From IMG/VR virus record IMGVR_UViG_3300027851_000011: a stretch of DNA of 64,000 nt; one strand, written 5' to 3'. Below are positions 1,693 through 52,113 of this stretch, one piece after another; the first letter of the stretch is position 1, and every line of letters starts with the position of its first letter. The notes beneath the pieces are model-generated. The model was not told the origin of the DNA. It saw only the letters and a program-made list of their open reading frames with translations, and made no database searches. A program made the translations under genes and the position numbers. The stretch is from a virus. Its lineage: Duplodnaviria; Heunggongvirae; Uroviricota; Caudoviricetes.

Positions 1693-1961
1693 TGCTGAGC
1701 ATCCTCCTGTTCCTGTTCCCACGCCTGCGCACCAAGCTGGTGTGGGCACAGGGCCTCACCTACGTCAAGATCATCCGCACGACCCTCGCGGGCTCCGTGC
1801 GGATGGCCGACCAGTTCCCGAACGCGGACGGTCCCGTTCGTGGAATGGCGGTCTACAGCCATAGCATGGCTGGATCATGCCGAACGACACGTCTGATCGT
1901 CATCACACGCGTCATCAATCGAAAGGCACCCGATGGGAATCGAAAACCCAACACTGGATGA
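1692..1961 (+). CDS. hypothetical protein
   Basis: 89-aa ORF coupled to the helicase stop. Confidence 0.4.
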   Translation: MLSILLFLFPRLRTKLVWAQGLTYVKIIRTTLAGSVRMADQFPNADGPVRGMAVYSHSMAGSCRTTRLIVITRVINRKAPDGNRKPNTG

Positions 1962-2121
1962 GGCAATCGCGCACTGCCGCGAACGACTCACCCGTTACCA
2001 CTGCGATAACCACCCGACGGCGCCGATCCCGGTGTACCAGCAGCACCTGACGGTGCTGTTGGCAGCCGTTGATTCCAAGCCGGCTGCGAAAGGACAACGT
2101 GTCGATACCAAAGAACAGTAA
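1933..2121 (+). CDS. hypothetical protein
   Basis: 62-aa ORF in a tightly packed + strand run. Confidence 0.5.
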   Translation: MGIENPTLDEAIAHCRERLTRYHCDNHPTAPIPVYQQHLTVLLAAVDSKPAAKGQRVDTKEQ

Positions 2122-3834: not shown

Positions 3835-4383
3835 ATGGCGAAAGCCAAACTCAACTCCACCTCTTCCACTGTGAGCGACCCGCCGCCGAGCGATGGCGAT
3901 TCGCTCGGATATGCCAAAACGTGGCTGAACAATCGCCTCAGCGATGGTGCCACGTGCCCCTGCTGCAAGCAGTTCGCCAAGCTCTACCACCGCCCGTTCA
4001 ACAGCGGCATGGCCCACAGCCTGATCTGGCTCGTGCGTGCCTTCACCGAGACCAAGCACGACGGATACATCCACGTGCCGTCGATGTGCACGCGTGCCGT
4101 GATGCGCAACCGCGAGTTCGACAAGCTGGCGCTGCATGGCGTCGCCGAGACCATCCAGTCTGAAGATCCGACGGTGCGCTCCAGCGGCTACTGGCGCCCG
4201 ACGGCGCTCGGCATCGCTGTCGTCAAGGCTGGTGGGACCATCCACAAGAGCCTGGACGTCTACAACGGCAAGATCGTGTCGCGGTCTGCGGCCATGATCG
4301 GCATCCGTGAGGCTCTCGGCCAGAAGTTCGACTACGAAGAGCTGATGCACAAGAGCGTCGCTGACGTTCTGGCGTCGGCATAA
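3835..4383 (+). CDS. hypothetical protein (CPCC motif)
   Basis: ATG after AAAGG; strong GC3 codon bias. Confidence 0.7.
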   Translation: MAKAKLNSTSSTVSDPPPSDGDSLGYAKTWLNNRLSDGATCPCCKQFAKLYHRPFNSGMAHSLIWLVRAFTETKHDGYIHVPSMCTRAVMRNREFDKLALHGVAETIQSEDPTVRSSGYWRPTALGIAVVKAGGTIHKSLDVYNGKIVSRSAAMIGIREALGQKFDYEELMHKSVADVLASA

Positions 4384-41752: not shown

Positions 41753-41817
41753 ATCATTCCAGCAACGTCGCTGGGTGGTGCATCTCACCAGCAACATCCA
41801 TCACCCTGGAGGTTCCC

Positions 41818-42066
41818 ATGTCCCTCGAAACCGCCGCCGACGCCGGCTCCGCCCTCAGCACCACCGCGACCGATGACAAGGCCGCCACGATCTTCACCAA
41901 GAAGAACGTGGCCATCGCCCTGGTCGCCGTCGTGGTGACCGCCGGCCTCGTCTACTGCATCATGAAGGTGATGCAGAGCTACAAGGCCAAGCGGCTGGCC
42001 CAGAAGGCGGCCGAGCCGACCGCCGCGAAGCCCGCCGAGAAGCCCGCCGAGCAGAAGGCGGCCTAA
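41818..42066 (+). CDS. small single-pass membrane protein (paralog of 44390-44623)
   Basis: MSLETAADAGS; GGAGG RBS. Confidence 0.75.
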   Translation: MSLETAADAGSALSTTATDDKAATIFTKKNVAIALVAVVVTAGLVYCIMKVMQSYKAKRLAQKAAEPTAAKPAEKPAEQKAA

Positions 42067-42288: not shown

Positions 42289-43281
42289 ATGAGCCGCATC
42301 ACTATTGTCTCGAACCATCGCGATGCCGATGTCATCACGCACGACGGCAGCTTCCACGCCGATGAAGTCATGGCGTGCGCCATGACGTTGATCAGCCTGC
42401 GCACCTTGAACGTTCACAGGACGCGTGATCCGTCGACGATCAAGGACGCCATCATCCACGGGAAGACGGTCGTCGACGTCGGCGGCGAGAACAAGCCGGA
42501 TCTCGATGTCTTCGACCACCACCAGAAGGGCGGCGCAGGATGCCGGAAGAACGGCGTTCCGTACAGCAGCTTCGGGTTGCTGTGGAAGAAGCGCGGCGTC
42601 GATACCGTCATCGCGGCGATTCCGAACACGACGACGCTCACCACGTCGCAGGCCATCGCTGTGGCAGCCGCGATCGACGAAGGACTCGTCACCACGGTCG
42701 ATGCCACTGACAACGGCGCCGTCTTCGGTTACCAGACGCTGCGGAACTCGCCCGATGTGCGCATTCCGCAGTACAGCGTGTCGCTGATGATCCACCACCT
42801 GAACCCGCCTGCGTTCGGTGTGGCGTCACCTGTCGAGTACGACGCGGCGTTCTGCGACGCCGTCGAGTTCGCAGCTGGTATCCTGCGGCGCGAGATCGAG
42901 CACACCATCGCTCGCGTCGTCAGCGAGACGCGTGTGCGAGACGCGATGCGTGAAGCCCTGGACGCCAAGGTTCTGATCCTCGATCAGTTCGAAGCTGCGA
43001 TGAGCGACATCGTGATGGAGTCGCCGTCGCTGCTCTACTGCATCTTCCCGGACCAACGCGGAACGTGGATGGTACAGCAGGTCGCGAAGACCAAGGGCAG
43101 CTTTGAAGGGCGTGCACCGCTCCCGGCTGCGTGGGCGGGGCTGCGTGACCAGCAGCTCGCTGCGATCACGGGCGTGAACGATGCGGTGTTCTGCCACAAC
43201 GGCAGGTTCATCGCCGGTGCGAAGTCGAAAGACGGTGCCATCGCGCTCGCAGCGCTGGCCGTGTCTGCATTCGAATCCTGA
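42289..43281 (+). CDS. MYG1 (UPF0160) family exonuclease
   Basis: THDGSFHADEV, DVGG, FDHHQ, SSFGLLWK and FCHNGRFIAG motifs. Confidence 0.9.
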   Translation: MSRITIVSNHRDADVITHDGSFHADEVMACAMTLISLRTLNVHRTRDPSTIKDAIIHGKTVVDVGGENKPDLDVFDHHQKGGAGCRKNGVPYSSFGLLWKKRGVDTVIAAIPNTTTLTTSQAIAVAAAIDEGLVTTVDATDNGAVFGYQTLRNSPDVRIPQYSVSLMIHHLNPPAFGVASPVEYDAAFCDAVEFAAGILRREIEHTIARVVSETRVRDAMREALDAKVLILDQFEAAMSDIVMESPSLLYCIFPDQRGTWMVQQVAKTKGSFEGRAPLPAAWAGLRDQQLAAITGVNDAVFCHNGRFIAGAKSKDGAIALAALAVSAFES

Positions 43282-44346: not shown

Positions 44347-44389
44347 ATTCTTGGAACAAACTCCAAGACAACCCCGTTCGGAGGCTATC

Positions 44390-44623
44390 ATGTCCCTCGA
44401 ATCCGCTGCCGACGCCGGCTCGTTCATCTCGTCGCTCGCCAACAGCGACGTCGACGTTCTCCAGATCCAGGTGGTTCGCAAGCCGACCACTGCCGAACTG
44501 GTCACCGGCGCCGTCGTCTTCACGGTGATCCTCTCGGCCTTCGTCGGCTGCTGGATCTGGTTCATCCGCTCGGAGCGCAAGCACCAGCTCGCTCTGCGCG
44601 CTGCCTCGGCGAAGGCAGCCTGA
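44390..44623 (+). CDS. small single-pass membrane protein (paralog of 41818-42066)
   Basis: MSLESAADAGS; GGAGG RBS. Confidence 0.75.
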   Translation: MSLESAADAGSFISSLANSDVDVLQIQVVRKPTTAELVTGAVVFTVILSAFVGCWIWFIRSERKHQLALRAASAKAA

Positions 44624-45169: not shown

Positions 45170-46627
45170 ATGTCCCGATTCAACGCTGCTGCCAAGAAGG
45201 CGAAGACCCCGATCGCCGACACCATCAACAAGGCCGGTGGCAGGGCCTACAGCATCACCCCGAAGACGGAGTTGGTGAACCTGCTCACCAGTTCGATGAT
45301 GGCAGGCAAGGGCCTGGAGAGCGACACCGAGCAGATCAACCGGCTCAAGGACCTGCTCACCAAGGTCGATCCGCTGTTCGCGGCCAAGACCGCGCTCTAT
45401 GTCCGCAAGGAGCACGGCCTGCGTTCGGTCACGCACGCCATGTCGGCGCTGCTCGCCCGCCACGCCAGTGGCCAGCCGTGGGCCACCAAGTTCTACGACA
45501 AGATCGTGCACCGAGTCGATGACGCCGGTGAGATCGTCGGCGCGCTCTGGGCGCTCACCGACACGAAGAAGGGTGTCATCCCTGGCGCCATGAAGCGCGG
45601 CTTCGGCAAGGCGCTGTCCCGCTTCAGCGAGTACCAGCTCGCCAAGTACAGCGGCGGCAAGCGCGCCGTGAAGCTGATCGACCTCGTCAACCTGACGCAC
45701 CCCAAGGGCAGCGTCGGCGTCGGCAAGCTCGTGAAGGGCAAGCTGGAGAGCGCGGACACCTGGGAGTCAGCCATCTCGGCTGCCGGCCCGGATGCCGAGA
45801 AGAAGTCCGACGAGTGGAAGCGCCTGCTCATGGACGGCAAGCTGGGCATCTTCGCCCTGCTCCGCAACGTGAACAACATCGTCGAGAGCCTCGGCGACGA
45901 CAAGAAGGCAATGGCCGCACTGGTCAGCCAGCTGACCGACGAGGCAGCCGTGAAGAAGAGCCTGATCCTCCCCTTCCAGTACGCCAAGGCGATCGAGGCC
46001 GTGGAAGAGAAGGGTGGGGCGAAGGGCTTCGTGCTGGATGCGCTGCGTGATGCCCTCGAACTGTCCCTGAACAACGTTCCCGATCTCGTCGGCGACACCG
46101 TTGTGGTGCTCGACGTCAGCGGGTCGATGTCCGGTGACCCGGTGAAGATCGGCGCTCTGTTCAGCGCCGTGCTGATCAAGGCCCTGAAGGAGCGCTGCAC
46201 GTTCGTGATGTTCGCGACCGACGCAAAGATCATCAACGTGTCGACCCGGCCGGGTACGTGGGAGATCCGCAACGAGATCATGAAGAAGTGCGGCGGCGGA
46301 GGCACCAACTTCCACGCCATCTTCCAGACGCTCAAGCAGCACAAGATCAGCGCTGAACGCGTGCTGATCCTGTCCGACATGATGGGGTGGATGGGCTTCG
46401 AGACGCCGCAGTCGCACGCCTCTGATTGGGCGCGCACCTGCTGCAAGGTGAAGCCGACCATCTACAACTGGAACCTGAACGCGGCTGGCACGAGCCAGTT
46501 CACGCAGAGCCAGTACCTCGACATCGTGGCGATCTCGGGGTGGTCAGACAAGGTCTTCGATCAGATCAACAACGCCGAAGAGGACCCTGAGCTGGTCCTC
46601 CAGGCGATCGAAGCCACCGAACTGTAG
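45170..46627 (+). CDS. rsr: Ro60/Rsr RNA-binding protein (TROVE + vWA domains)
   Basis: INKAGGRAY; LFAAKTALYVRKEHGLRSV; YQLAKY; LTHPK; TWES; LLRNVNNI; MIDAS LDVSGSM; GGGTNF; ILSD. Confidence 0.92.
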   Translation: MSRFNAAAKKAKTPIADTINKAGGRAYSITPKTELVNLLTSSMMAGKGLESDTEQINRLKDLLTKVDPLFAAKTALYVRKEHGLRSVTHAMSALLARHASGQPWATKFYDKIVHRVDDAGEIVGALWALTDTKKGVIPGAMKRGFGKALSRFSEYQLAKYSGGKRAVKLIDLVNLTHPKGSVGVGKLVKGKLESADTWESAISAAGPDAEKKSDEWKRLLMDGKLGIFALLRNVNNIVESLGDDKKAMAALVSQLTDEAAVKKSLILPFQYAKAIEAVEEKGGAKGFVLDALRDALELSLNNVPDLVGDTVVVLDVSGSMSGDPVKIGALFSAVLIKALKERCTFVMFATDAKIINVSTRPGTWEIRNEIMKKCGGGGTNFHAIFQTLKQHKISAERVLILSDMMGWMGFETPQSHASDWARTCCKVKPTIYNWNLNAAGTSQFTQSQYLDIVAISGWSDKVFDQINNAEEDPELVLQAIEATEL

Positions 46628-46644
46628 TAGTGCATATTTGTTGT

Positions 46645-46671
46645 TGACAGTTTCGCTGGCGTCATACGCTC
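46645..46671 (+). promoter_or_regulatory. putative promoter TTGACA-N15-TACGCT for the ncRNA array
   Basis: Lies between the Ro60 stop and the first element; same geometry as 7418; coordinates approximate. Confidence 0.35.
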
Positions 46672-46742
46672 ACGCGCATGACGCCAGCGAACAGTTTTGT
46701 CGTGGATTGGTTGACAACTCGTTCCTGATTTTCTGAATCCTC

Positions 46743-46833
46743 GCTGTGTGGCGAGCGAAGCCGTTCCTTCTAGCCCGGTGTGGTTCGCCACTCGGGGCTG
46801 CCAAAAACAAACGGCCCGCGATTTTCCCACAGC
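46743..46833 (+). ncRNA. Y-RNA-like element 1 (free-standing)
   Basis: GCTGTG/CACAGC basal stem, bulged U, GG/CC, CGA internal loop; 23-nt motif at 46748. Confidence 0.7.
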
Positions 46834-46840
46834 TTTTCAC

Positions 46841-46918
46841 TGCGGAGTGGAGAAGTCTGGCTATCTCGCTGCCCTCATAAGGCAGAGTTCACTGGTTCAA
46901 ATCCAGTCTCCGCAACCA
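46841..46918 (+). tRNA. tRNA-Met(CAT)
   Basis: Full cloverleaf: TGCGGAG/CTCCGCA, loop CTCATAA, TTCAAAT, encoded CCA. Confidence 0.9.
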
Positions 46919-46920
46919 CA

Positions 46921-46983
46921 GGCCGTGGCGACCTCGACGGTTACTTCTCTGGCAAGTTACCCCGTCATGGAACTATCCCGGCC
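46921..46983 (+). ncRNA. Y-RNA-like element 2 (free-standing)
   Basis: GGCCG/CGGCC and GACGG/CCGTC stems; motif at 46925. Confidence 0.75.
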
Positions 46984-47020
46984 CTTTCTCCCAACCACCA
47001 ACACCTCAAAGGAGGCTCTC

Positions 47021-47221
47021 ATGGACGACAACGAGAATGCCTACAAGCCCACCAAGGAACAGCGGCTGGAGATGGCGAAGAGCCATCTGCGCGCCGCGAA
47101 GGCCGGTGGCTGTCCCCTCGATCAGATCATGATGCTGACGGAGCAGATCCGCAGCATCGAGATGGAAGCGGCTCCCGCTGCTCCCGATCTCAAGCGCCGG
47201 CTGGAGCCGGTCGCCCTCTGA
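47021..47221 (+). CDS. 66-aa hypothetical protein embedded in the ncRNA array
   Basis: AAAGGAGG RBS. Confidence 0.7.
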   Translation: MDDNENAYKPTKEQRLEMAKSHLRAAKAGGCPLDQIMMLTEQIRSIEMEAAPAAPDLKRRLEPVAL

Positions 47222-47278
47222 TCTGATGCTGACGGTGTCTTGCGACGCCGTCCCTGTATAGAGTAAGCAGGAGTTCAT

Positions 47279-47413
47279 GGACGCCGTAGCTCAGCTGGTA
47301 GAGCAATAGTCCGAAAAGCCCGACTCATTTATGCCGGCGCAAGCCGTGCCGAGAGACCCGGTTACTTCAAACCAAACTATGGGTCAAAGGTTCGAATCCT
47401 TTCGGCGTCCCCA
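47279..47413 (+). ncRNA. tRNA-scaffold/Y-RNA chimera A (element 3)
   Basis: Acceptor GACGCCG/CGGCGTC + C + CCA; D arm; T arm; 65-nt insert in place of the anticodon loop, with the motif at 47346. Confidence 0.8.
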
Positions 47414-47415
47414 AA

Positions 47416-47482
47416 GACAAGTGGCGAGCCCGTCGGTTACTTCATTGCAAACGAAACACACCGTAGGCATTTTTCCCTTGTC
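47416..47482 (+). ncRNA. Y-RNA-like element 4 (free-standing)
   Basis: GACAAG/CTTGTC, GCC/GGC and CGGT/ACCG stems; motif at 47421. Confidence 0.75.
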
Positions 47483-47496
47483 GTTCTTTTCAAACA

Positions 47497-47559
47497 GGCC
47501 GTGGCGATCGACGCAGTTACTTCTTGGAACGAAACACACTGCCCGAAACTTTCCCGGCC
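47497..47559 (+). ncRNA. Y-RNA-like element 5 (free-standing)
   Basis: GGCCG/CGGCC, TCG/CGA and GCAGT/ACTGC stems; motif at 47501. Confidence 0.75.
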
Positions 47560-47566
47560 CTTGGAT

Positions 47567-47696
47567 GGTGCAGTAGCTCAGTGGTTAGAGCACGTAAATA
47601 CCCGTCAGCAATGATCCCGCCTAACGGTGTGGCGAGCACGGCGGTTACTTCTTGTTAAGAACGTGGTCGTTGGTTCGAATCCAACCTGCACCGCCA
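47567..47696 (+). ncRNA. tRNA-scaffold/Y-RNA chimera B (element 6)
   Basis: GGTGCAG/CTGCACC + G + CCA; D and T arms; insert with the motif at 47629. Confidence 0.8.
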
Positions 47697-47732
47697 CTAC
47701 ATCTCACGCGTCAGACCAACTGACGCAGGCTT

Positions 47733-47836
47733 GGGGAGGCCGCCCAACGGCTGGGCACTCCGTCCGCATCTTTCCCGCCTTCGGGTGTGGCGAGCATGAC
47801 GGTTCCTTCCAGGTTCGAATCCTGGCCTCCCCACCA
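47733..47836 (+). ncRNA. tRNA-scaffold/Y-RNA chimera C (element 7)
   Basis: GGGGAGG/CCTCCCC + A + CCA; anticodon arm replaced by a TTCG-capped hairpin with the motif at 47787. Confidence 0.8.
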
Positions 47837-47839
47837 CGC

Positions 47840-47904
47840 GCGTCGTAGCGAGCTACTCGGTTCCTTCACTCATCGCAAGACACCGACAGCGTTTTTCTCG
47901 GCGC
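47840..47904 (+). ncRNA. Y-RNA-like element 8 (free-standing)
   Basis: GCGTCG/CGGCGC, AG/CT, GCT/AGC and TCGGT/ACCGA stems; motif at 47845. Confidence 0.7.
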
Positions 47905-47978
47905 CTTTTCCTCGACACCCATGGCCCATCGCCGTGGGTGTTTTCGTTTTTACTCACCGTACCAACCCAGGAGCCCGC

Positions 47979-48497
47979 ATGGCAACGGCCATCACCCCGA
48001 CCAACAAGAAGCCAAGGCACCACGATCCGCTCCGCGACGTGGCCGAGAAGCGCTTCGCTGAACACAAAGCCGATGCCGCGCGCAAGGCTGTCGCTGACCG
48101 CCGTGCCAAGGCGAAGTCCAACTTCAACCACGTCCTGGAGAGCGCGAAGATCGCGCTCGATGAAAATAACGAGTTCATCCTCCCTGCCGACTACTGTTTG
48201 GTGGATGTGCTCGCAGCCGGCGTCATCGGCAAACCCGTTCGTCTGGACGAAGACCGCCTCACGGTCATGGTCAACGGCAAGCGCAGCTACACCTGTGGCC
48301 GGGTGATGTTCAGCGCCACTGGCGCGATCATCGGCGTCGAGATGAAGCACATCGTGAAGACCGGGCCGAAGGGCCGCGCGTATCAGCTGATCGCGTACGG
48401 CACCGGCGTCCAGGAAAGCCAGTGGGACAAGCTCGTCATCGACTGGCATCTGCTCAACAAGAACAACACGGCGGGGTTCCCTCGCCGCATCCTCTAA
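47979..48497 (+). CDS. hypothetical protein
   Basis: AGGAG RBS; strong codon bias. Confidence 0.7.
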   Translation: MATAITPTNKKPRHHDPLRDVAEKRFAEHKADAARKAVADRRAKAKSNFNHVLESAKIALDENNEFILPADYCLVDVLAAGVIGKPVRLDEDRLTVMVNGKRSYTCGRVMFSATGAIIGVEMKHIVKTGPKGRAYQLIAYGTGVQESQWDKLVIDWHLLNKNNTAGFPRRIL

Positions 48498-51945: not shown

Positions 51946-52021
51946 TGGCTCCGAGACCAGGACTCGAACCTGGGACCTTGATGTTAACAGCATCTTGCTC
52001 TACCAACTGAGCTATCTCGGA
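51946..52021 (-). tRNA. tRNA-Asn(GTT)
   Basis: Cloverleaf TCCGAGA/TCTCGGA, loop CTGTTAA, G discriminator, CCA. Confidence 0.92.
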
Positions 52022-52026
52022 ATGCA

Positions 52027-52113
52027 TGGTGCGGGTGGAAGGAATCGAACCTACTTGGTACGAAGTACGACAGATTTACAGTCTGCCCCGCCTCCATATC
52101 GGTCTACACCCGC
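52027..52113 (-). tRNA. tRNA-Tyr(GTA), long variable arm
   Basis: GCGGGTG/CACCCGC, loop CTGTAAA, variable arm GTAC-TTC-GTAC, ACCA. Confidence 0.92.

What the first reader, a model, noticed from the sequence alone, without database searches (positions are those of the whole stretch)
45170..47904. Phage Ro60 gene followed by an array of eight Y-RNA-like elements with a shared fold
Seen: a 23-nt motif, GT(G/A)(G/C)CGA-N7-NGTT(A/C)CTTC, occurs at 46748, 46925, 47346, 47421, 47501, 47629, 47787 and 47845, all within 1.3 kb downstream of the TROVE+vWA gene. Each copy folds the same way: a 4-6 bp basal stem, a bulged U, 2 bp, an internal loop of CGA opposite a U-rich strand, a short stem, a bulge, a 4-5 bp stem, then a loop starting U(A/C)CUUC. 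The stems covary between copies (GGCCG/CGGCC, GACAAG/CTTGTC, GCTGTG/CACAGC; GG/CC becomes AG/CT in element 8). Known: Ro60/Rsr binds a bulged helix containing GNCGA in Y RNAs such as YrlA and Yrn1, and Y RNA tethers Rsr to PNPase. Inference: this phage encodes a whole family of Ro60 ligands rather than the one or two usually described.
Basis: partly seen in the sequence, partly recalled or inferred. Interest (0 to 1): 0.92.

Follow-up and report, generated by a model that had tools for sequence, protein, structure and literature searches.

The report
Phage Ro60 gene with eight-Y-RNA operon
A roughly 200-kb freshwater phage carries a Ro60 gene followed by one terminator-bounded block of eight small RNAs that share the Ro60-docking helix: five are simple hairpins and three are tRNA-shaped RNAs wired in normal tRNA order, a layout I did not find in the Y-RNA papers I could read.

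Summary
The eight motif copies are real and lie exactly where stated (8 found, 0 expected by chance). The gene upstream is a genuine Ro60: it matches TROVE and aligns over its full length to Thermus phage phiLo Ro60.

Three (E3, E6, E7) do not. They hold the same helices in circularly permuted order: the basal stem is capped by a GCAA, UAAC or UUCG tetraloop, and the distal stem opens into a tRNA body with a 7-bp acceptor stem, D and T arms and an encoded CCA.

The hairpins start 2-3 nt after a CCA end or stop 7 nt before a tRNA 5' end, which suggests release by tRNA-processing enzymes.

A covariance model finds 66 such RNAs in 29 phage loci. All 65 that lie in a locus with a detected TROVE gene are on that gene's strand, and covariation is strong.

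This is a YrlA/YrlB-type Y-RNA family. The array size and the unpermuted tRNA-order form are a new variant of a known kind. Earlier agents of this scan reported both features on other DNA (unchecked notes). Expression and Ro60 binding are untested.

The parts
45170..46627 (+). Ro60 (TROVE + vWA) gene, 485 aa
   Evidence: PF05731 E 4.9e-20 and VWA_CoxE E 5e-4, below its cutoff. Residues 21-473 align to phiLo Ro60 (9KOP/9L5Y) at E 7e-21, and part aligns to D. radiodurans Rsr (2NVO) at E 2.5e-6. A DxSxS motif, DVSGS, is in the translation.
46652..46700 (+). Long hairpin plus short U run after the Ro60 stop codon; a likely terminator or processing site
   Evidence: RNAfold of 46630-46745 gives a 14-bp stem followed by UUUUGU. 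The terminator scan did not list it because the loop exceeds 8 nt.
46743..46833 (+). E1: hairpin-type Y RNA (91 nt) with an extra UUCG-capped hairpin in its apical loop
   Evidence: Motif at 46748. R1 hit at E 1.5e-5 although E1 was not in the seed. The module fold is -38.2 against a free minimum of -38.5 kcal/mol.
46841..46918 (+). tRNA-Met (CAU) with encoded CCA; starts 7 nt after E1 and ends 2 nt before E2
   Evidence: Rfam tRNA 61.3 bits; ARAGORN; spacers.
46921..46983 (+). E2: hairpin-type minimal Y RNA (63 nt)
   Evidence: Motif at 46925. The free minimum-energy fold equals the module fold. R1 53.2 bits, but E2 was in the seed.
47021..47221 (+). 66-aa ORF with a strong ribosome-binding site (AAAGGAGG) inside the RNA array; function unknown
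   Evidence: Sequence read; no Pfam match; no tblastn hit in the loci fetched.
47279..47413 (+). TL1 (holds E3): tRNA-shaped Y RNA. It has G-1, a 7-bp acceptor stem, D arm, a retained anticodon stem, the docking module capped by GCAA, T arm, C73 and CCA
   Evidence: Rfam tRNA 53.6 bits with a 62-nt insert. Closed basal stem CGGC/GCCG and second helix GC/GC. The minimum-energy fold has an 8-bp acceptor stem that includes G-1:C73. Helices 3 and 4 of the module are less certain because a competing GACCC/GGGUC pairing exists.
47416..47482 (+). E4: hairpin-type minimal Y RNA (67 nt); starts 2 nt after the CCA of TL1
47497..47559 (+). E5: hairpin-type minimal Y RNA (63 nt); ends 7 nt before TL2
47567..47696 (+). 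TL2 (holds E6): tRNA-shaped Y RNA with the docking module capped by UAAC, G73 and CCA
   Evidence: Rfam tRNA 50.8 bits with a 65-nt insert. The constrained module fold lies 1.9 kcal/mol above the free minimum. Its 50-nt block is 78% identical to that of TL3 (D3).
47708..47726 (+). 7-bp hairpin in the 36-nt spacer between TL2 and TL3
   Evidence: RNAfold -11.5 kcal/mol.
47733..47836 (+). TL3 (holds E7): tRNA-shaped Y RNA. The docking module, capped by UUCG, directly replaces the anticodon arm; A73 and CCA follow the acceptor stem
   Evidence: The free minimum-energy fold is a cloverleaf with the module as its anticodon arm; z -2.45, and 0 of 200 shuffles fold as well. The T arm, acceptor 3' strand and CCA form a repeat family with the other three tRNA-type genes (D6). 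Neither Rfam tRNA nor ARAGORN detects it.
47840..47904 (+). E8: hairpin-type minimal Y RNA (65 nt) with second helix AG/CU; starts 3 nt after the CCA of TL3
47914..47952 (+). Intrinsic terminator that closes the array
   Evidence: 12-bp GC-rich stem followed by a T run; -21.5 kcal/mol.

Best explanation
This is a phage Ro60-Y RNA locus. The Ro60 gene is followed by a non-coding RNA block that ends at an intrinsic terminator. The block encodes eight RNAs, each carrying one copy of the same Ro60-docking module.

The module reads: basal stem, bulged U, a 2-bp helix, CGA opposite a U-rich strand, and two short helices followed by UUMCUUC.

Five RNAs are minimal hairpins whose own 5' and 3' ends form the basal stem (YrlB-like). 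Three are tRNA-shaped RNAs in ordinary tRNA order. In these the acceptor stem is open and ends in an encoded CCA, D and T arms are present, and the docking module stands where the anticodon arm would be, capped by a stable tetraloop. This is the reverse cut of published YrlA, whose ends lie in the Ro stem and whose acceptor stem is a closed loop.

Inferred mechanism: the block is made as one or two precursors. RNase P and the tRNA 3'-end machinery cut at the tRNA-Met and the three tRNA-like bodies, which also sets one end of every hairpin RNA. Phage Ro60 then binds each RNA through the shared module. The variable part (a tRNA body, an extra hairpin or a small loop) selects different partners. 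By analogy with Rsr-Y RNA-PNPase and phiLo Ro60-Yrl-PNPase, the partners would be a host exoribonuclease such as PNPase or tRNA-binding factors.

Shown here: the sequences, the folds, covariation and linkage to the Ro60 gene. Inferred only: transcription, processing, binding and function.
For: The motif occurs 8 times against 0 expected.

The module fold is the free minimum-energy fold for E2, E4, E5, E8 and E7, and lies within 0.3-1.9 kcal/mol of it for E1, E3 and E6.

All helices covary among the eight copies. Basal stems are GCUGUG, GGCCG, GACAAG, GCGUCG, CGGC and CGCC with their partners. The 2-bp helix is GG/CC six times, GC/GC once and AG/CU once.

TL1 and TL2 score 53.6 and 50.8 bits against Rfam tRNA, with 62- and 65-nt inserts at the anticodon position. 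TL3 folds freely into a cloverleaf. All four tRNA-type genes encode CCA.

Spacers are 7 nt (E1 to tRNA-Met), 2 nt (tRNA-Met to E2), 2 nt (TL1 to E4), 7 nt (E5 to TL2) and 3 nt (TL3 to E8). A terminator lies at 47914-47942.

Family level: model R1 gives 66 hits at E<1e-3 in 29 of the 39 sources searched. All 65 that lie in a TROVE-bearing locus are on the TROVE strand, at a median distance of 231 nt. In that alignment 89.1% of cells are paired against 61.6% in shuffles, there are 262 double-sided changes, and the covariation score is 0.668 against 0.161. No shuffle of 500 reached these values and the slid controls score 0.07-0.14.

The tRNA-order form recurs in eight other phage contigs: L074, L077, L078, L093, L138, L153, L207 and L221. 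They have 7-bp acceptor stems, and their caps are GAAA, UUCG, GUAA or GCAA except in L093.

In single low-depth contigs of near-identical strains, the listed substitutions fall in unpaired positions or keep pairing: GCAA to GAAA in TL1 and U-G to U-A in E8.

The protein is a full-length Ro60.

Precedents in print: M. smegmatis YrlA is cut by RNase P and gains CCA, and YrlA and YrlB come from one precursor (PMC4201824). phiLo Ro60 binds two phage Yrl RNAs and forms a complex with host PNPase (PMC12135203).
Against: There is no expression, end-mapping or binding datum; no listed sequencing run is on record as RNA.

No sigma-70-type promoter was found upstream of the array.

The minimal hairpins are not unusually stable (z -0.7 to -1.6).

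None of the eight has the full published GNCGAA motif; they read GNCGAG, GNCGAC or GNCGAU.

The Rfam YrlA model gives no hit in the region even at E<=10.

In TL1 the inner helices of the module compete with another pairing (GACCC/GGGUC), and E1 has an alternative fold of equal energy that masks the motif.

E6 and E7 are recent duplicates (78% identical), so the eight copies are not eight independent witnesses.

The alignment used for the covariation counts was fitted to the model and leans towards it.
Confidence: 0.75

Rival explanations
1. The RNAs are real and structured, but their main partner is not the neighbouring Ro60. They would act on host tRNA-handling proteins or another phage protein, and the linkage to Ro60 would be indirect.
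For: Binding is untested. The tRNA-like bodies carry CCA ends and, in TL1, a G-1:C73 signature that could engage tRNA enzymes without Ro60. Unchecked notes of this scan report tRNA-mimic RNAs paired with non-Ro60 proteins elsewhere.
Against: All 65 model hits in TROVE-bearing loci lie on the TROVE strand, at a median of 231 nt from the gene. The shared part of all eight RNAs is exactly the module that Chen 2014 relates to the Ro60 contact site (GNCGA). phiLo Ro60 binds its own neighbouring Yrl RNAs (PMC12135203).
Confidence: 0.1
2. Only some copies work. The array is a set of recent duplicates, several of which are decaying, so the 'family of ligands' is smaller than eight.
For: E6 and E7 are 78% identical over 50 nt; E2 and E5 share the same basal stem; E4 and E5 share the loop sequence ACGAAACACAC. 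E1 and TL1 have competing folds.
Against: All eight keep every helix of the module through compensatory changes, and all keep the invariant single-stranded letters. The few variants seen in related strains are structure-neutral. Arrays of 3-6 recur in unrelated phage contigs.
Confidence: 0.1
3. TL1-TL3 are ordinary tRNA genes interrupted by an intron-like insert that is removed to give working tRNAs.
For: The insert sits at the anticodon position. Ordinary tRNAs of other organisms align to both halves of TL1 and TL2 and skip exactly 76 and 71 nt. TL1 keeps a 5-bp anticodon stem.
Against: No anticodon loop would remain after removal, and TL3 has no anticodon stem at all. The inserts are about 55-76 nt and are homologous to the free-standing Y hairpins, so they are not self-splicing introns. 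From general knowledge, known bacterial tRNA introns are group I introns of more than 200 nt, and no bulge-helix-bulge splicing enzyme is known in bacteria.
Confidence: 0.03
4. The repeats act as DNA, for example as protein-binding sites or recombination repeats, and are not RNA genes.
For: No transcript evidence is available.
Against: Compensatory changes keep base pairs rather than sequence. Orientation is strictly that of the TROVE gene. The repeats are built into cloverleaf tRNA bodies with T loops and CCA. Stable GNRA and UNCG tetraloops make sense only in RNA.
Confidence: 0.02

Closest known systems
YrlA (Rfam RF02553; Chen et al. 2014, PMC4201824; structure in Wang et al. 2018, bioRxiv 10.1101/312249)
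   Same: Encoded beside Ro60 on the same strand. It has the GNCGA docking motif, YUAY after the docking stem, and a tRNA-like domain with D arm, T arm and acceptor-type stem. Phage examples are known (22 phages in Chen 2014).
   Different: In YrlA the RNA ends lie in the Ro stem and the acceptor stem is a closed loop (a circularly permuted tRNA). Here the ends lie in a 7-bp acceptor stem with encoded CCA, and the Ro stem is capped by a tetraloop. The Rfam model gives no hit here at E<=10, whereas canonical copies in other phage loci score up to 45 bits. Both strands of the docking helix are conserved here; Chen 2014 state that only the 5' strand is recognisable in the Salmonella and M. smegmatis RNAs.
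[quoted passage not shown]
   Same: A tRNA-like Y RNA with an open 7-bp acceptor stem and a CCA end, handled by tRNA enzymes. Two Y RNAs are processed from one precursor.
   Different: That RNA becomes two pieces held together by pairing, and its CCA is added after cleavage. Here each tRNA-shaped RNA is one continuous chain with CCA in the gene, and the block holds eight Y RNAs plus a real tRNA.
Minimal second Y RNAs: Salmonella and M. smegmatis YrlB, D. radiodurans Yrn2, Thermus phage phiLo Yrl1 and Yrl2 (PMC4201824, PMC12135203)
   Same: Small stem-bulge-stem RNAs beside Ro60 that carry the CGA(A) motif. The phiLo RNAs are shown to bind phage Ro60 and to join host PNPase.
   Different: Two RNAs per species are described in Salmonella, M. 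smegmatis and phiLo (at least two in D. radiodurans); here there are five of this type plus three tRNA-shaped ones. I did not compare sequences with YrlB or Yrl1/2 because I had no reference sequences.
tRNA-punctuated precursor processing (MALAT1-mascRNA; mitochondrial tRNA punctuation; from general knowledge)
   Same: tRNA-like structures placed so that RNase P and 3'-end enzymes define the ends of neighbouring RNAs. TL1's 3' half even gives a weak mascRNA-like hit (18 bits, E 1.3), which I take as chance.
   Different: Here the punctuating tRNA-like units are themselves predicted Ro60 ligands.

Membership tests
Y RNA (Ro60 ligand) in the broad sense | Encoded close to a Ro60/TROVE gene on the same strand | tested here: met
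   All eight lie within 1.3 kb downstream on the + strand. Across the family, 65 of 65 model hits are on the TROVE strand.
Y RNA (Ro60 ligand) in the broad sense | Bulged helix carrying the conserved Ro contact motif (GNCGAA-N0-1-G in bacteria, GGUCCGA in vertebrates) | tested here: inconclusive
   GNCGA and the bulged helix are present in 8 of 8. The second A of CGAA is present in 0 of 8 (G, C or U instead). Relatives in other phages mostly have CGAA, with CGAU and CGUA also seen.
Y RNA (Ro60 ligand) in the broad sense | Docking helix formed by the RNA's own 5' and 3' ends | tested here: inconclusive
   Met for E1, E2, E4, E5 and E8. Not met for E3, E6 and E7, where a tetraloop caps the helix.
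Y RNA (Ro60 ligand) in the broad sense | Physical binding by Ro60 | not testable with these tools
   Needs pull-down or EMSA.
YrlA (Rfam RF02553) | Match to the Rfam covariance model at or above 69 bits | tested here: not met
   No hit in 46600-48000 at E<=10 and none in the window at gathering score. Other phage loci score 21-45 bits.
YrlA (Rfam RF02553) | tRNA-like domain with D arm, T arm and acceptor-type stem | tested here: met
   Present in 3 of 8. TL1 and TL2 score 53.6 and 50.8 bits on Rfam tRNA; TL3 is supported by its free fold.
YrlA (Rfam RF02553) | Circularly permuted order: ends in the Ro stem, acceptor stem closed by a loop | tested here: not met
   The order is the opposite: an open acceptor stem with CCA, and a Ro stem capped by GCAA, UAAC or UUCG.
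YrlA (Rfam RF02553) | Conserved YUAY after the docking stem | tested here: met
   UUAC in five copies and UUCC in three.
tRNA | Cloverleaf with a 7-bp acceptor stem, D arm, T arm and CCA | tested here: met
   TL1, TL2 and TL3. TL3 has CC in place of U8-A9 and is not detected by Rfam or ARAGORN.
tRNA | Anticodon stem with a 7-nt anticodon loop | tested here: not met
   A 51- to 76-nt docking module replaces it. ARAGORN calls none of the three.

The most novel reading that the evidence does not exclude
The three tRNA-order Y RNAs are working acceptor-end mimics. TL1, with G-1:C73 plus an encoded CCA (the main histidine identity mark, which from general knowledge works without an anticodon), would be charged by or would sequester HisRS. 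Phage Ro60 would then be tethered to an aminoacylated tRNA look-alike, or the RNAs would serve as anticodon-less decoys or sensors against host tRNA-targeting defences. The same G-1:C73 mark recurs in the tRNA-order Y RNAs of four other phage contigs (L074, L077, L207 and L221, the last two near-identical).
Probability: 0.12. Interest if true: 0.85.

Novelty: new variant of a known kind. Interest (0 to 1): 0.6.

Why it matters
Ro60 and Y RNAs are conserved from bacteria to humans, but what the variable half of a Y RNA recruits is still largely open.

A single phage operon offers one docking module on eight different bodies, so it is a natural panel for asking which partners each body selects. 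The bodies are three tRNA shapes with free CCA ends, one with an extra hairpin, and four small loops.

The tRNA-order form shows that the link between YrlA and tRNA exists in both cuts of the circle. This bears on the proposed origin of YrlA from tRNA precursors (Wang 2018). It also makes questions that Chen 2014 raised for M. smegmatis YrlA directly testable: RNase P cleavage, CCA ends and possible aminoacylation.

It is not a new kind of system. Phage Ro60 with Y-like RNAs is published, and notes from earlier agents of this scan report arrays and unpermuted forms on other DNA.

Tried and rejected
Close relatives of the locus. The Ro60 protein as a single query found no relative in viral contigs or metagenome contigs. 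The 73%-identical protein P0002 and the second contig of P0001 lie on contigs that stop 77-256 nt after the gene. No orthologous array could therefore be compared.

Sequencing runs. No listed holder is on record as RNA, and the two 'RNA?' wastewater runs are probably DNA and are contigs only. There is thus no expression evidence either way.

Genome-contig scan of the motif. Most hits are chance, so this gave no host clue.

Pattern scans for the closed form in viral contigs. Most hits were chance matches inside coding sequence, and only 8 true tRNA-order examples emerged.

RNAalifold on a MAFFT alignment of the closed modules. It failed to recover the capped stem because stem and loop lengths vary. 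It proposed an invariant GUGGC/GUUAC pairing with no covariation, which E1, E3 and E7 break, so I rejected it. I did not build a second covariance model for the closed form.

MYG1 exonuclease as a conserved partner. It was not found in any other TROVE locus fetched by then.

Sigma-70 promoter scan upstream of the array: nothing found.

Literature. The reviews PMC10870794 and PMC6047535, and the id I recalled for Burroughs and Aravind 2016, are not held. I therefore cannot exclude that tandem or unpermuted Y RNAs are mentioned there.

The first-stage idea that the small apical loops mimic anticodon loops. By eye, E2 and E5 have 7-nt loops with U at position 2 on 3-4 bp stems, while E4 and E8 do not fit. 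I did not pursue it.

Full report
**Observation**

The 23-nt pattern GTRSCGA-N8-GTTMCTTC has exactly eight matches in the window. All are on the + strand and at the stated coordinates. None of 100 dinucleotide-preserving shuffles gave a match.

The gene just upstream (45170-46627) matches TROVE at E 4.9e-20 and has a weak vWA match. Residues 21-473 align to the solved Ro60 of Thermus phage phiLo (9KOP/9L5Y, E 7e-21), and part aligns to D. radiodurans Rsr.

The window is phage DNA. It encodes a large terminase, a tail sheath, a helicase and an exonuclease, and the Ro60 protein is on record on a contig of about 200 kb.

**Anatomy: two topologies**

Rfam finds a normal tRNA-Met at 46841-46915. 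It also gives two further 'tRNA' hits of 131 and 127 nt (53.6 and 50.8 bits) that carry 62- and 65-nt inserts at the anticodon position. Those inserts hold motif copies 3 and 6. Copy 7 lies in a third such body, which folds freely into a cloverleaf.

In these three RNAs (TL1 47279-47413, TL2 47567-47696, TL3 47733-47836) the partner strand of the motif lies upstream of it. The basal stem is closed by GCAA, UAAC or UUCG. The distal stem opens into the tRNA body (repeat family D3).

- E1 46743-46833
- E2 46921-46983
- E4 47416-47482
- E5 47497-47559
- E8 47840-47904

That fold is the unconstrained minimum for E2, E4, E5 and E8, and lies 0.3 kcal/mol above it for E1.

All eight therefore share one module of four helices in two circular permutations. 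The helices covary between copies. Six different basal stems occur. The 2-bp helix is GG/CC six times, GC/GC in E3 and AG/CU in E8.

A covariance model of the hairpin form (R1) recovers E1, which was not in its seed, at E 1.5e-5. It does not recover the three embedded copies. This confirms that they do not fold 'the same way' as linear chains.

**Layout of the block**

The order is:
- Ro60 stop codon
- a long hairpin with a short U run
- E1
- 7 nt, then tRNA-Met with CCA
- 2 nt, then E2
- a 66-aa ORF with a strong ribosome-binding site
- TL1 with CCA
- 2 nt, then E4
- 14 nt, then E5
- 7 nt, then TL2 with CCA
- a 36-nt spacer holding a hairpin
- TL3 with CCA
- 3 nt, then E8
- an intrinsic terminator at 47914-47942 followed by a T run

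Every free-standing hairpin thus has one end next to a tRNA-type 5' or 3' processing site.

**Comparative evidence**

About 31 of them have a TROVE gene within the locus, usually a few hundred bases from the motif.

A relaxed motif search in those loci shows arrays of 2-6 copies. They include canonical YrlA-order copies (motif, variable arm, T arm, closed acceptor stem, D arm, 3' strand) and minimal hairpins.

RNAalifold on a plain MAFFT alignment of 18 minimal hairpins recovers the basal stem, the 2-bp helix and the distal stem. Ten of its 13 pairs show compensatory changes.

Model R1 gives 66 hits at E<1e-3 in 29 of the 39 sources searched. All 65 that lie in TROVE-bearing loci are on the TROVE strand, at a median of 231 nt from the gene; 56 are upstream and 9 downstream.

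On that alignment 89.1% of cells pair, against 61.6% in shuffles. There are 262 double-sided changes, and the covariation score is 0.668 against 0.161. No shuffle of 500 reached these values, and the slid controls score 0.07-0.14. The alignment is fitted to the model, which inflates these figures somewhat.

Rfam does hold YrlA (RF02553). Canonical copies in other phage loci reach 21-45 bits, below the 69-bit cutoff. The window gives no YrlA hit even at E<=10.

The tRNA-order form is not unique to this phage. L074, L077, L078, L093, L138, L153, L207 and L221 carry it, with 7-bp acceptor stems. Their caps are GAAA, UUCG, GUAA or GCAA, except in L093. TL1 and L207/L221 share the GC/GC helix, the GCAA cap and the CAUUUAU strand, so they form one lineage.

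**Variation in related strains**

Contigs from four other metagenome runs were laid on the array. Ordinary tRNAs of other organisms align to both halves of TL1 and TL2 and skip 76 and 71 nt.

In single low-depth contigs of near-identical strains, the listed substitutions in TL1 and E8 fall in unpaired positions or preserve structure. Examples are GCAA to GAAA in the TL1 cap and U-G to U-A in the E8 basal stem.

None of these runs is reliable RNA, so they say nothing about expression.

**Mechanism**

Shown: eight structured elements with a shared, covarying module beside a bona fide Ro60 gene, three of them inside tRNA bodies with CCA.

Inferred:
- They are transcribed as a precursor that ends at the terminator.
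- RNase P and the tRNA 3'-end enzymes release the units.
- Phage Ro60 binds each unit through the module.
- The variable bodies choose partners.

Precedents in print:
- Co-processing of YrlA and YrlB from one precursor.
- Rsr-Y RNA-PNPase (all three in PMC4201824).
- phiLo Ro60 binding two phage Yrl RNAs and joining host PNPase (PMC12135203).

A MYG1-family exonuclease gene (E 4.5e-65) lies three genes upstream of Ro60 and is a possible phage-encoded effector. It is not linked to TROVE in the other loci fetched by then.

**Rivals**

Intron-containing tRNAs are unlikely, because no anticodon loop would remain and the inserts are homologous to the free hairpins.

DNA-level repeats are unlikely, given the compensatory changes, the strict strand orientation and the tetraloop caps.

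A non-Ro60 partner, or partial decay of the array, cannot be excluded without experiments.

**Known versus new**

Known: phage and bacterial Ro60 genes with neighbouring YrlA/YrlB-type RNAs, including 22 phages in Chen 2014 and the two phiLo RNAs.

Wang 2018 describe YrlA as resembling a circularly permuted tRNA with a closed acceptor stem.

I found no paper in the held library that describes arrays of this size or a one-piece tRNA-order Y RNA with an encoded CCA. Two reviews and the Burroughs-Aravind paper were not available, so this is a limited search.

Notes left by earlier agents of this scan report both features on other DNA: arrays of up to nine RNAs beside Ro60-like phage genes, and unpermuted tRNA-shaped Y RNAs beside cyanobacterial and crAss-like phage Ro60 genes. 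I did not check those notes.

My verdict is a new variant of a known kind, and a clear example of it.

Noticed in passing
window 47279-47413; L074:8835-8963(-); L077:99-225(+); L207 around 1900-2010(-); L221: TL1 has an extra G at -1 facing a C73 discriminator, followed by CCA. This is the tRNA-His identity mark. The same G-1:C73 pair occurs in the tRNA-order Y RNAs of L074 (which also encodes CCA), L077 and L207/L221. A His-like lineage of these RNAs may exist.
   Followed up: partly
window 46743-46833 (E1): E1's apical insert contains UCGCCAC, the exact complement of its own GUGGCGA docking motif. A fold that masks the motif has the same energy as the module fold (-38.5 against -38.2 kcal/mol). 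This could be a switch or a coincidence.
   Followed up: no
window 42289-43281: A MYG1-family (UPF0160) predicted exonuclease gene, E 4.5e-65, lies three genes upstream of Ro60 on the same strand. It is a candidate nuclease partner, but it is not found beside TROVE in the other loci fetched by then.
   Followed up: partly
window 47021-47221: A 66-aa ORF with a strong ribosome-binding site sits inside the RNA array, between E2 and TL1. It has no Pfam match and no relative in the fetched loci.
   Followed up: partly
window 41274, 41727, 44321, 50160: A 24-nt direct repeat family (GRSATAAG...TACA.G.AAAA) lies in front of several + strand genes of this block. It may be a phage promoter or a ribosome-binding-site context. 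It is not present in front of the RNA array.
   Followed up: no
window 41808-41849 and 44380-44421: A 42-nt repeat, 88% identical, covers a ribosome-binding site, the start codon and the first 10 codons of two small genes. They look like paralogous gene starts.
   Followed up: no
L027 around 4121-4215 (-): In another phage contig a hairpin-type Y RNA carries a complete, normal-looking tRNA (Rfam 53 bits) inside its apical loop. This is a third way of joining a tRNA to the docking module.
   Followed up: no
window 51946-52113 (-): tRNA-Asn (GTT) and tRNA-Tyr (GTA) genes lie on the opposite strand, 4 kb downstream of the array.
   Followed up: no
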